64,000 nucleotides of DNA from a virus. Taxonomy: Duplodnaviria > Caudoviricetes. This document shows positions 34,229-37,200 of this stretch, piece by piece. Each line of letters opens with the position of its first letter. Position 1 is the first letter of the stretch. The notes below the pieces were generated by a model. The model had not been told where the DNA came from. It did not search any database and was given only the letters and a program-made list of their open reading frames with translations. Both the position numbers and the translations under genes were made by a program. The stretch is from the IMG/VR virus record IMGVR_UViG_3300031555_002578. One strand, given 5' to 3'.

Positions 34229-37200
34229 TCATTCGTTTCTGATATAATATTGTTTAAGCCAAAATTCAAATTTATCTGGAACTTCAACATAAATTTTCTT
34301 TCCAGTAAATTCATCAATCTCTCCAGAAGGTTCTTTTTTATTTTTCTTTTCTACAGAAGTAATGAATAAAATATCTCCTTCTTCAAACACACTTTTATTA
34401 AATTGGCTTGTCCACATTTTTACTTCTCTTGTTTTGCCACTGTAAAGTTCATATAGGCTTATATTTACGACAGTTTTCTTTGTTTCTAACATGGACACAT
34501 AATACAATCTTTTATCTTGATTAGGGTCATAGTCTTGAACAATCCCCAATACTGTTCTTTGATTATCTAATTTTTCTTTTAAAGTAAGTGGCTTATATGG
34601 AATGGTAGAAATCAATTCATTTAATAATCCATTTGAATCTAATTTATTAAATTGTTTTTCTGTTTCGTTTCCATATTTTTTTAGTAAATCAAAAGGTAGA
34701 TGATTAGTTTCTGCTTTTGTTTTAGAAATAGTTTTAGCACCATATACTATTTCGTAATATTTTGTAATTTCTAATAGAGTATTTACATCTCCATAATCAC
34801 AAAAATATCCGATTTTGATTAACTTATCCACAATTGTTTTATTTATAGAATTAGATAATAATGTATTTAATACAGAAACAAAATCATCATATTGCATTTG
34901 TCCAAGTTGATATAGTGTCTCTACAACACCTTCTCCAAATCCCTTTACACTAGATAAGTTTGGATAAATTAATTTTGATTCTTCATCAATATTAACTTTT
35001 CTATTGTCTGTACCAAATTTATAATTCCCTAATCTATATCCATAGAACTTCATGGCTTCTTTAACAAGTGCATCAATTTTATCTTTTTTATTTTTTTCTT
35101 GATAATGATTGATTGCAACTTCATAAAATTTAGTAGTATGATGTGCTTTGAACCATGCTTGATATGCACTATCTCCACCCATTGAATAAGCGTGAGGTGC
35201 ATTAAAAGCATACGCCGCAGAATCTTCAATTACTTTCCATACTTTATTAAAGTTATCAAGATTATTAAATTCATCTGCCCATGCTTCTTTTAATTCTTTT
35301 AACAGATTTTCTTTCTTTTCACCTTTCAATTTCTTTTTAGAAATAGATTTAATTACACTGTATGTTTCTCCCATAGGTAACTGTAGAAAAGATAAAACTT
35401 TCATAATAGATTCTTGATAAATCATAAAGTGTGCAGTATCTTCTAGTAATGCATCAATCTTAGGTTCACCAGTAGAGTAATGTTCTCTATTAAGAAATGT
35501 GTTTAAGAGTGATGCGAAGCCACGGACGAATACCTGCGATAAAACTACTTAATTCTGCTAAATTTTGTGGCTTATATTTTTTTACTTTGTTTGTTGTAGA
35601 TTCTTTTTCGCATTGATTCACACAACAAGTAATACCTTTAGCATAAATATCCCAAGTAGGTTTATCGTCTTTAATCATTTCACGCAATTCGTCAAAAGAA
35701 GGAACTGGTTTGCCGATGCTTTCAAAGAATCTGTATGTTAAATGAACACTATCTACAATTAGAAAATCTTCTTTAACATATCCAAATTCATCTAGGAAAC
35801 CACCTTCAATAGCAGCACATATAGTACGTTTACCAGTAGTTTCAGAAACAGCACTAATTAATCCTACTTCCCTACGAATATCACCATTTAGGATGAAGTG
35901 ACCACAAGCGTGAACTTTTAGGTTAATTGTAATTCCTTGATATTCATTGCTTTTTCTAAACAATTCAACATATTCTTCTGGAATATAATCTTCTACATGA
36001 ATAGTATCTTTTTCATCTTCTTCTGCATATTTTAGTGCTTTATTATAATCATCCAGATATTTAGAAATTTGATTTGCAATAGATGGTTCTACATCATTTG
36101 CTCCTGCGTATAATTGCCAAGCCGCTTTCTCTTTTAATTTTTCAACAGCCATTAGAGGATAGCATCCATGCTCACCAAGCAATTCTCTTGATGCTTGTAC
36201 AAATGGTTCTTGTACAGCAACATTTAGGTCAATATCTGGCATACTACCTGCTAATACCCTGTCTTTTGTAAGGAAACGTTCTGGATAAATAGGAATATCA
36301 GCATTGAACCTATCTACTGTAGTTAATCCACACAATTTAGAAGTTACAAATGATGCGGCTGAACCCCTAGATGTGGTAGTCAAGATACCTCCATATTTAC
36401 TAATTGCCAAATCAATAATTGCTTTACTTGTTAGAAAGTAATCGGTTACATGAGATTGAGTAATTTCTCCAACTTCATATCTAATACCATTAACCTTTTC
36501 TTTGTGTTTTAAAGTTTCTTTTGAGTATGCTTTATTGATGATATCTTTAAATATTTTTATTTTTTCCTTTTCTGTGCTATTTGGATAAATAGTAGGAATT
36601 TTAAAATTTCTATCTAAAGTAATTTCTTCGCATTCAGATACAAAAATATTTGTATTCATAATTGCCCTTAAAATTTCCTCATCAGACAAAACACCTTGTT
36701 CTTGGAAACGTTTAATGATTACTTCTGTATTTGGATAATCCATATACCATCCATCTTCATCTTCATAATGAATATTTTTATATTTAAGAATCTGGTCACG
36801 TTTGATAGAAGATTTTTCTGTAATATAGTGAGTATCTAGTCCGCAAATAATATCAATATTATATTTTTTAGAAAGTTCTATAATTTTTTTATTTAATTCT
36901 TTTTGTTCTGGGGTATTGTGATATTGAACTTCAAAGAAAAAGTTTTTACCAAAATATTCTGCTATTTTTAGCCATGCATCTTCTGCATCTTCATATTTCC
37001 AACCTGCTATACATGCACTTGTAACAATTACATTATCTTTAGGAATTTCAAATAGTATTTCATAATCCAATCTTGGTTTGTAATAATATCCATCTTCATT
37101 TGCTCTTGATAGTGCATAATTGATATCTTTTCTACCTTCAGCATTTTTAGCAACAATAATCATATGGCAATTTGCATTGTCTTTTGTAGTTCTTAAACTA

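What the first reader, a model, noticed from the sequence alone, without database searches (positions are those of the whole stretch)
35451..35515. Stem-loop placed where a frameshift stimulator is expected
Seen: in the mRNA, GCAUCACUCUUA (35515-35504) can pair with UAAGAUUGAUGC (35462-35451) at 11 of 12 positions. It encloses a second hairpin, UAGAG-AACAUUA-CUCUA (35489-35473). The stem begins 7 nt after the CCG codon. Local codons (GGC TTC ... CTC TTA AAC) are unusually C-ending for this AT-rich phage. Known: 3' stimulatory structures typically lie about 5-9 nt downstream of a shift site. Inference: this is a selected pausing element and argues against a sequencing error.
Basis: partly seen in the sequence, partly recalled or inferred. 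Interest (0 to 1): 0.75.

Follow-up and report, generated by a model that had tools for sequence, protein, structure and literature searches.

The report
Hairpin after phage polymerase frameshift site
A gut phage's DNA polymerase gene carries a real, inherited one-base frame break that removes a restriction-enzyme target from an essential motif; a sturdy RNA hairpin sits just downstream, where a ribosome-pausing helper would be expected, but its helper role is not yet proven.

Summary
The 11-of-12 outer stem (35515-35504 with 35462-35451), the inner 5-bp hairpin (35489-35473) and the 7-nt gap after CCG are all present.

The frame break is not a sequencing error. It is one extra T (35522) between the Pro and Gly codons of the RPG motif of a DnaE-type polymerase. 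Independent assemblies from other studies, about 1.8% diverged, keep it without indels. Their substitutions are synonymous in frame 0 upstream and in frame +1 downstream. Twelve distinct 693-aa N-halves, down to 86% identity, end the same way. All 72 more distant relatives are unbroken.

The break has a plausible cause. The 64-kb window holds no CCNGG and no Pro-Gly or Gly-Pro dipeptide, and Pro-Gly cannot be encoded without CCNGG.

Evidence that the hairpin is selected is mixed:
- For: pair probability is at least 0.9 in every context. Such helices occur about once per 2.2 kb. Only 0.35-2% of synonymous recodings fold as well. None of 47 unbroken relatives has an equivalent helix.
- Against: After look-elsewhere correction, 15% of relatives fold as well.
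- Covariation could not be tested.

I give about 0.5 that it stimulates the +1 shift. The scan has noted Pro-Gly frame breaks that erase CCWGG in another phage.

The parts
35523..37571 (-). dnaE 5' part, frame 0 (PHP, polymerase core, first half of fingers), ending ...FIAGIRP
   Evidence: ORF list. Pfam PF02811 and PF07733. 60-87% identical to unbroken 1084-1112 aa relatives.
35519..35525 (-). Shift site CCG-U-GGC. Frame 0 reads Pro-Trp; frame +1 reads Gly after the U is skipped.
   Evidence: All 72 relatives read CCN-GGN here without the extra base. CCG is the rarest Pro codon: 5 of 403 in the window and 1 of 32 in the gene.
35522..35522 (-). Extra base (T on the coding strand) that breaks the frame and removes the CCNGG site
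   Evidence: Present in independent contigs X7 and X9 with 0 gaps. Variants P0002 and P0129 have Arg instead of Trp here, so the base is C or A in them.
35490..35522 (-). Frame-0 tail WLRITLKHIS plus UAA stop (35492-35490). This would be the fate of ribosomes that do not shift.
   Evidence: Translation. The tail is identical in 12 distinct N-half variants apart from W/R.
35504..35515 (-). 5' arm of the outer stem (GCAUCACUCUUA)
   Evidence: Pair probabilities 0.90-1.00.
35473..35489 (-). Inner hairpin UAGAG-AACAUUA-CUCUA
   Evidence: Pair probabilities 0.76-0.82.
35451..35462 (-). 3' arm of the outer stem (UAAGAUUGAUGC)
   Evidence: The same 12 bases occur in the unbroken relative L065.
34229..35521 (-). 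dnaE 3' part, frame +1 (GFASLL..., rest of fingers, HhH), including the stop codon
   Evidence: Pfam PF17657 and PF14579. Matches E. coli Pol III alpha residues 673-892. 17 synonymous against 5 non-synonymous changes versus strain X7 in this frame.

Best explanation
The hairpin lies just downstream of a genuine +1 recoding site in the phage's DnaE-type replicative polymerase gene.

**Origin of the break (shown, with the cause inferred).** The phage lineage has purged every CCNGG site. Pro-Gly is always CCN-GGN, so the invariant Arg-Pro-Gly motif of the polymerase fingers could lose its site only through an inserted base (CCG-U-GGC). Ribosomes must then skip that base to make full-length polymerase.

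**Mechanism (inferred).**
- The shift happens with the rare, probably wobble-read CCG in the P site.
- Gly-tRNA takes GGC in the +1 frame instead of UGG being read.
- The 12-bp outer helix has its first pair at base +11, at the mRNA entrance of a ribosome holding CCG in the P site. It slows the ribosome there and so raises the yield of the shift.
- Ribosomes that fail to shift stop 10 codons later at a UAA inside the structure.

**Status of each step.** Shown: the break, its inheritance, selection on both frames, site avoidance, and the existence, robustness and placement of the helix. Inferred: where the shift occurs, and that the helix stimulates it.
For: **The break is real and inherited.**
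- The X7 contig (27.9 kb, bovine gut, 2025) spans the gene with 59 substitutions and 0 gaps. X9 (viral metagenome, 2024) spans 34229-36761 with 51 substitutions and 0 gaps.
- Of the 40 listed substitutions, 18 of 18 upstream are synonymous in frame 0. Downstream, 17 of 22 are synonymous in frame +1 and 16 of 22 fall on that frame's third position (binomial p = 1.8e-4).
- Twelve distinct 693-aa N-halves, down to 86% identity, all end IRP[W/R]LRITLKHIS.
- Twelve distinct 398-aa C-halves exist. There are also P0146 (84% identical) and P0147 (85%), whose N-terminus MQVFVRGFASLL is the +1 frame read across the break.

**Motive for the break.**
- The window holds 0 CCNGG against 35-40 expected, and 0 PG or GP dipeptides against 44.7 expected.
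- RPG is the only PG/GP conserved in 49 distinct unbroken relatives. It aligns with FRPGP of E. coli Pol III alpha.

**The helix.**
- MFE is -14.4 kcal/mol, and outer-stem pair probability is 0.90-1.00 in every context from 65 to 365 nt.
- Only 29 comparable helices occur in 64 kb, so one starting in a given 10-20 nt interval has p of about 0.005-0.009.
- 0.35% of synonymous recodings fold as well, and 0.55% reach 11 of 12 pairs.
- None of 37 distinct homologous segments folds as well when framed alike (best -10.1), and none has more than 9 of 12 pairs.
- None of 47 unbroken contexts has a helix of at least 9 bp with p of at least 0.9 within 25 nt.
- The gene's only CTC codon supplies one G-C pair.
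- The 5' arm is unchanged in all 12 N-half variants. Strain X7 shows no listed substitution between 35447 and 35598.

**Precedent.** Listeria phage PSA shifts +1 on a proline codon just 5' of a pseudoknot (PMC5009743).
Against:
- Fixed windows of 60, 120 and 150 nt are unremarkable.
- With the frame left free, 15% of unbroken relatives have an equally stable local structure.
- The helix is A/U-rich. The outer stem alone is worth only -8.4 kcal/mol.
- No pseudoknot partner was found.
- The 3' arm is fixed by conserved codons (K-I-D-A) and is identical in the unbroken relative L065. Three unbroken relatives already reach 9 of 12 pairs.
- Invariance among carriers may reflect recent shared ancestry or recombination. 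P0002 is mosaic, identical to P0001 after residue 281 apart from the break codon at residue 684. For X7, no change in 150 nt has p = 0.07.
- No covariation could be tested.
- UGG is a common codon here (175 uses), so the hungry-codon logic is weak.
- A downstream structure has no clear mechanical reason to favour forward slippage, and most bacterial +1 sites lack one (my own knowledge, and PMC5009743).
Confidence: 0.5

Rival explanations
1. The recoding is real, but the hairpin is a by-product. It arises from conserved codons (A-S-L-L and K-I-D-A) plus a locally G/C-richer stretch. The shift is driven by something else: the site itself (rare CCG in the P site, GGC in frame +1), low-level spontaneous shifting that suffices for a polymerase, or a trans-acting tRNA of the phage or host that takes four bases (CCGN or NGGC).
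For: - z = -0.81 on 101 nt.
- 15% of unbroken relatives fold as well locally.
- The 3' arm is identical in the unbroken relative L065.
- The skipped base varies (T, or C/A in P0002 and P0129). This fits a reader indifferent to that base.
- No in-frame CGG occurs among 15,408 codons.
- Unchecked scan notes, used as leads only: an odd Pro-anticodon tRNA in this phage (e1-5747657), and CGGN read as Gly in gut Clostridia and their phages (e1-3750428, e1-1397089, e1-5650305).
- Low-level compensation of a 'savior' indel is a known category (PMC5009743).
Against: - Placement and robustness of the helix are unlikely by chance at about the 1% level.
- It is favoured over synonymous recodings.
- No equivalent helix exists in 47 unbroken relatives.
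- A freely available four-base reader would let the phage keep Pro-Gly everywhere. Instead all about 45 expected PG/GP dipeptides are gone, and only this one site is recoded.
- The other two CCGTGGC words (20386, 42801) are read in frame.
- There is no tRNA gene in the window.
Confidence: 0.36
2. There is no recoding. The polymerase is made as two separate polypeptides (693 aa, and 398 aa from the ATG at 35425), or the gene is a tolerated pseudogene, and the hairpin is irrelevant.
For: - Gene callers find the two ORFs in every carrier.
- dnaE genes of relatives are often split elsewhere by inteins or other inserts.
- No expression data were obtained.
Against: - A dead gene would not keep 17:5 synonymous to non-synonymous changes and intact 398-436 aa ORFs at 84-85% identity.
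- A two-piece enzyme would lose 32 conserved fingers residues (GFASLL...TAHF). Yet that stretch stays open in frame +1 and differs at 1 of 32 residues in P0147, against about 15% divergence downstream.
- The only start codon in frame +1 is the ATG at 35425. I see no good Shine-Dalgarno sequence before it (my reading).
- The break lies exactly between the Pro and Gly codons of the invariant RPG.
Confidence: 0.1
3. The extra base is a sequencing or assembly error, and the hairpin is chance.
For: The window comes from a metagenome assembly. All 72 more distant relatives are unbroken.
Against: Independent Logan assemblies from different studies and years (2018, 2024, 2025) contain the same base with no indel while differing at 51-59 other positions. 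At least 12 distinct N-half and 12 distinct C-half protein variants from JGI, ENA and Logan share the break.
Confidence: 0.01

Closest known systems
Listeria phage PSA capsid gene (cps) +1 frameshift with a 3' pseudoknot (as reviewed in PMC5009743)
   Same: A phage of low-GC Gram-positive bacteria. The +1 shift occurs on a proline codon, with an RNA structure just downstream proposed as stimulator.
   Different: PSA shifts on CCC, where the tRNA can re-pair on CCU. It makes two products by design and uses a pseudoknot. Here the codon is CCG with no re-pairing. Only the shifted product can be useful. The structure is a branched stem-loop with no pseudoknot found. CCC-N cannot be used here because it would recreate CCNGG.
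Yeast Ty3 (GCG_AGU_U), Ty1 (CUU_AGG_C) and Kluyveromyces waltii antizyme (CCG_UGA_C) +1 sites (PMC5009743)
   Same: A +1 shift without P-site re-pairing. CCG is a known P-site codon of this kind. GGC is the +1-frame codon, as in Ty1. Ty3 and EST3 need a 3' stimulator.
   Different: These are eukaryotic. Their A-site codons are rare or stops, whereas UGG is common here (175 uses). [quoted passage not shown]
Glass-sponge mitochondrial +1 frameshifts at UGG followed by Gly GGA (PMC2267718)
   Same: An in-frame UGG is skipped by one base to read a conserved glycine. It is a conserved, compensated single-base insertion.
   Different: There UGG is otherwise unused, since Trp is UGA. The paper contains no mention of a stem-loop or secondary structure. 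It is an organelle system with no link to restriction sites.
'Savior' indel with compensatory frameshifting, such as herpesvirus thymidine kinase G-run (PMC5009743)
   Same: An indel that rescues the virus from an external threat and is tolerated because some ribosomes restore the frame.
   Different: That case is a homopolymer run arising under drug pressure within patients. Here the site is not a repeat, is fixed in a lineage, and the threat is a restriction enzyme.
E. coli dnaX -1 frameshift hairpin
   Same: A stem-loop downstream of a shift site in a replication gene acts as a pausing element.
   Different: It acts in the -1 direction on a slippery A_AAA_AAG heptamer, with an upstream SD-like element and 6 nt spacing, and makes two useful products (my own knowledge).

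Membership tests
3' RNA-structure stimulators of programmed ribosomal frameshifting | A genuine recoding site lies immediately upstream: the frame break is conserved and both frames are under purifying selection. | tested here: met
   (0 gaps in independent strains; 18:0 and 17:5 synonymous to non-synonymous). (12 or more variants of each half).
3' RNA-structure stimulators of programmed ribosomal frameshifting | A stable structure begins a few nucleotides 3' of the A-site codon, at the mRNA entrance. | tested here: met
   The first pair is at +11 from the first P-site base, 4 nt after UGG. Pair probability is 0.90-1.00 in all contexts.
3' RNA-structure stimulators of programmed ribosomal frameshifting | The structure is more stable than shuffled or recoded controls. 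| tested here: inconclusive
   z = -0.81 (101 nt). z = -3.55 (65 nt). z = -3.06 against synonymous recoding. After look-elsewhere correction, 2% of recodings and 15% of relatives do as well.
3' RNA-structure stimulators of programmed ribosomal frameshifting | Pairing is conserved through covariation among carriers. | tested here: inconclusive
   The 5' arm is invariant in 12 variants, and X7 is unchanged across the element. No variation means no covariation.
3' RNA-structure stimulators of programmed ribosomal frameshifting | Frameshift yield depends on the structure (disruptive and compensatory mutants). | not testable with these tools
   Needs a reporter assay.
+1 frameshifting at a slow ('hungry') A-site codon without P-site re-pairing (Ty3 type; sponge mitochondria) | The frame-0 A-site codon is rare or slowly decoded. 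| tested here: not met
   UGG is used 175 times, 11.4 per thousand codons. In the P0002 and P0129 variants the codon is CGG or AGG, which are rare (0 and 33 uses).
+1 frameshifting at a slow ('hungry') A-site codon without P-site re-pairing (Ty3 type; sponge mitochondria) | The P-site codon is read by a weakly pairing tRNA. | not testable with these tools
   CCG is the rarest Pro codon (5 of 403). The host and its tRNA set are unknown.
prfB-type +1 frameshift | A stop codon in the A site and an SD-like element about 3 nt upstream of the shift codon. | tested here: not met
   The A site holds UGG. The only SD-like run (AGGU) ends 6 nt before CCG.
Four-base decoding by an expanded-anticodon tRNA (sufB2/sufD type; the CGGN = Gly reading of earlier scan notes) | The same four-base word marks many frame breaks across the genome. 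| tested here: not met
   Only one break falls among the 10 CCNNGG sites of the window. The other CCGTGGC words are read in frame. No in-frame CGG exists.
Four-base decoding by an expanded-anticodon tRNA (sufB2/sufD type; the CGGN = Gly reading of earlier scan notes) | A tRNA with an enlarged anticodon loop that fits the site. | not testable with these tools
   No tRNA gene is in the window. The phage's tRNA island lies outside the window and outside G000. A relative's tRNA-Pro(UGG) is ordinary, with G37.
Sequencing or assembly artefact | The extra base is absent from independent assemblies. | tested here: not met
   It is present in X7 and X9 and implied by 12 or more protein variants from three sources.

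The most novel reading that the evidence does not exclude
The hairpin is a dedicated cis-stimulator that turns a non-slippery CCG_UGG_C into a productive +1 site. That would let a phage delete the last unavoidable CCNGG restriction target from the invariant Arg-Pro-Gly motif of its replicative polymerase. Programmed frameshifting, complete with its own RNA signal, would then have evolved as an anti-restriction device.
Probability: 0.4. Interest if true: 0.85.

Novelty: new variant of a known kind. Interest (0 to 1): 0.62.

Why it matters
Downstream RNA structures that stimulate frameshifting are well known for -1 sites. They are rare and poorly understood for +1 sites in bacteria and phages.

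Here the shift site cannot use the classic shift-prone CCC-N, because that would recreate the restriction target. Whatever makes CCG_UGG_C work must therefore lie in its context.

If the hairpin is that context, it offers a compact natural system of about 80 nt for studying how a 3' structure promotes forward frameshifting. It would also show that selection against a restriction site can reach past codon choice and amino-acid replacement into the decoding process itself.

In practical terms, gene callers split this polymerase in every carrier genome. Annotation pipelines should join the two halves.

Tried and rejected
**Searches for further carriers with accessible DNA. All failed.**
- Megablast of the gene against GenBank phages: no match.
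- Exact 26-mer of the site in IMG/VR: none.
- A degenerate pattern for A-[G/A]-I-R-P-N-G-F-A-S in IMG/VR: 4 hits, all unrelated GC-rich DNA.
- A longer degenerate pattern in JGI metagenomes and in GTDB genomes: none.
Covariation therefore could not be tested.

**Other checks that led nowhere.**
- Rfam search of 35200-35800: no family.
- Pseudoknot partner for the loops within 80 nt downstream: none of 5 bp or more.
- Quadruplet or second sites: the 10 CCNNGG sites of the window were inspected, and only the dnaE site breaks a frame.
- The odd Pro-anticodon tRNA from scan note e1-5747657 lies outside the window and G000. A 17-mer of its reported loop gave 28 IMG/VR hits, none in a tRNA-like context.
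- prfB-like upstream SD: rejected on spacing.
- Transcriptional slippage: rejected. The nearest A7 run (about 35584-35578) lies upstream of residues that are in frame 0.
- Shifting at other codons in the overlap (CUU_A, or the UAA stop) was considered unlikely, because it would replace the conserved GFASLLN residues.

**A limit of the read data.** The read-laying table shows only the best-supported rows. X9's private substitutions are not displayed, so conservation of the stem in X9 is unknown.
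Full report
**What is there.** The finding lies on the minus strand inside a DnaE-type DNA polymerase III alpha gene. Pfam finds PHP and the polymerase core in the 693-aa ORF 37571-35490. It finds the second half of the fingers domain and an HhH motif in the next frame, 35521-34229. The coding strand reads CGT CCG T GGC TTC GCA. Frame 0 gives ...FIAGIRP-WLRITLKHIS-stop. Frame +1 gives GFASLLNTFLNREHYSTGEPKIDALL.... The closest GenBank relative (MT836683, 60% identical) and 72 IMG/VR relatives (68-86% identical) read ...IRPGFASLL... 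in a single ORF of 1090-1125 aa. At DNA level all of them have CCN-GGN, so the window carries exactly one extra base, at 35522.

**The observation.** All stated pairings and coordinates are correct. The outer stem has 11 of 12 pairs. The inner hairpin has 5 bp and a 7-nt loop. Both are in the minimum-energy fold, and the stem begins 7 nt after CCG. The local excess of C-ending codons is real: 4 C-ending and 5 G/C-ending in 12 codons, within the top 2.5% of the gene. The gene's only CCG and only CTC codons lie here.

**The break is not an error.** Public runs holding this DNA were ranked and their Logan contigs laid on the gene.
- A 27.9-kb contig from a 2025 bovine-gut study (X7) covers the whole gene with 59 substitutions and no gap.
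- A contig from a 2024 viral metagenome (X9) covers 34229-36761 with 51 substitutions and no gap.
- No insertion or deletion was reported in any run.
- Of the 40 listed substitutions, all 18 upstream of the break are synonymous in frame 0.
- Of the 22 downstream, 17 are synonymous in frame +1, and 16 fall on that frame's third codon position (p = 1.8e-4). In the other two frames they would nearly all change the protein.

The protein collection agrees.
- It holds 12 distinct 693-aa N-halves. Seven are about 99% identical, three are 93-94% and two are 86%. All end in IRP[W/R]LRITLKHIS.
- It holds 12 distinct 398-aa C-halves, plus P0146 (84% identical) and P0147 (85%).
- P0147 starts MQVFVRGFASLL, which is the +1 frame read across the break.
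- In that 32-residue stretch P0147 differs from the window at one residue, against about 15% divergence further on. This argues for translation through the junction rather than restart at the ATG at 35425.
- Two variants have Arg instead of Trp at the break. The skipped base is therefore C or A there, and its identity is not fixed.

**Why the break exists.** I tested a lead from a sibling note of the scan.
- The 64-kb window has 0 CCNGG (35-40 expected), 0 GGNCC, 0 GGCC, 0 CCGG, 0 GGNNCC and 0 GATC (about 175 expected).
- It has no Pro-Gly or Gly-Pro dipeptide in 15,408 codons, against 44.7 expected.
- Pro-Gly is necessarily CCNGG.
- In 49 distinct unbroken relatives, RPG is the only conserved PG or GP in the whole polymerase. 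It aligns with FRPGP of E. coli Pol III alpha.
- A 95%-complete relative keeps 43 CCNGG sites and 26 PG dipeptides but only one GGNCC. The CCNGG purge is therefore specific to the window's lineage.
- The classic shift-prone CCC-N could not be used at this site, because CCC-N-GG again contains CCNGG.

**Is the hairpin more than chance?** The answer depends on the control.

| Control | Result |
|---|---|
| 65-nt element alone, dinucleotide shuffles | z = -3.55 |
| Native 65-nt windows | top 2.4-3.4% |
| Synonymous recoding with the gene's codon usage | 0.35% as stable; 0.55% reach 11 of 12 pairs |
| 37 distinct homologous segments, framed alike | mean -6.4, best -10.1, against -14.4; at most 9 of 12 pairs |
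| Fixed 75 / 90 / 120 nt from GGC | z = -2.66 / -1.81 / -0.80 |
| Frame left free | 2% of recodings and 15% of relatives do as well |

Two results that do not depend on framing favour the element.
- The outer stem has pair probability 0.90-1.00 whether 65 or 365 nt are folded.
- Helices of this class (at least 11 bp, at most one mismatch, mean local probability at least 0.9) number 29 on this strand of the window. One starting in a given 10-20 nt interval therefore has a probability of 0.5-0.9%, or 1-2% for helices of at least 9 bp.
- No unbroken relative has such a helix within 25 nt of the Gly codon, although several have weaker ones.

Several points count against it.
- The 3' arm is dictated by conserved K-I-D-A codons and is identical in the unbroken relative L065.
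- The structure is A/U-rich. The outer stem alone is worth -8.4 kcal/mol.
- No pseudoknot partner exists.
- The lack of change among carriers may reflect recent ancestry or recombination.

**Mechanism.** With CCG in the P site, the first stem pair is at +11. From my own knowledge, that is about where the ribosome starts to unwind mRNA. CCG cannot re-pair in the +1 frame, since that frame reads CGU. The site therefore resembles Ty3 or the K. waltii antizyme site CCG_UGA_C, with GGC as the incoming +1 codon as in Ty1 (PMC5009743). It also resembles the sponge mitochondrial UGG-then-Gly sites (PMC2267718). Unlike those, UGG is a common codon here. Some context must single out this one UGG among 175. 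The rare CCG and the hairpin are the only conspicuous local features.

A four-base-reading tRNA remains possible. The window has no tRNA gene, and only this one site is recoded. The phage also removed all other Pro-Gly pairs by substitution, which suggests recoding is costly rather than freely available. An odd Pro-anticodon tRNA reported elsewhere in this phage by the scan could not be reached. A relative's tRNA-Pro is ordinary.

**Verdict.** The inference that this is not a sequencing error is correct, though the proof comes from other evidence. The claim of a selected pausing element is plausible at about even odds and is directly testable. The scan has noted on other DNA (e1-5650305, e1-5650325) that an extra base between Pro and Gly codons can erase CCWGG sites. 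The present case differs in having a single site, a T rather than a C, and a candidate cis-element.

Noticed in passing
window 1-64000: The window shows a sweeping purge of short palindromes. GATC 0 (about 174 expected), AGCT 4 (112), GGCC 0 (30), GCGC 0 (13), CCGG 0 (10), CCNGG 0, GGNCC 0, GGNNCC 0. Many 6-mers are at 0, including AAGCTT, TGATCA, AGATCT, CTTAAG, TCTAGA and CCATGG. There are no Pro-Gly or Gly-Pro dipeptides, against 44.7 expected.
   Followed up: partly
L082-L089 (G001, IMG/VR contig of L017, 157 kb): A 95%-complete relative (dnaE 83% identical) keeps 43 CCNGG, 218 GATC, 382 AGCT and 26 PG. It has only 1 GGNCC, 0 GGCC and 0 GP. The GGNCC/GGCC purge is therefore family-wide, while the CCNGG/GATC/AGCT purge is lineage-specific.
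   Followed up: partly
window 35522; proteins P0002, P0129: Two carrier variants have Arg instead of Trp at the break codon, so the skipped base is C or A rather than T. If it is C, the site becomes CCG-CGG-C, the form that earlier scan notes read as a four-base glycine codon.
   Followed up: partly
L065-L068, L072; proteins P0003, P0148, P0150, P0153, P0158, P0201, P0202: dnaE genes of relatives are often interrupted at other places. P0003 has intein and LAGLIDADG domains. There are C-terminal pieces of 640-680 aa. Pieces of 395-397 aa starting MKVLSF or MQYF occur at 76%, 70% and 38% identity. Some ORFs are truncated about 90 residues into my query. These are probably introns, inteins or homing-endonuclease inserts.
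   Followed up: no
window 20386-20392 and 42801-42807: The heptamer CCGTGGC (or its complement) occurs twice more. At 42801 it is read in frame, as F-R-G, on the minus strand. At 20386 its complement lies inside an open minus-strand frame (K-S-H-G-R). Five in-frame CCT-TGG-G/A (Pro-Trp followed by a +1 Gly codon) also show no break.
   Followed up: yes
window 45766-45726, 63867-63799, 10653-10621, 9789-9746 (minus strand): These are the strongest local helices of the window (15-18 bp, local pair probability above 0.9). They may be terminators or structured RNAs.
   Followed up: no
window 35490-35521: All ten +1-frame synonymous positions of GFASLLNTFLN are unchanged in 12 N-half variants that differ by up to 14% elsewhere. 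Unbroken relatives at similar protein identity differ at about 7 of 11 of these codons. The cause is either nucleotide-level constraint or a recombining shared segment.
   Followed up: partly
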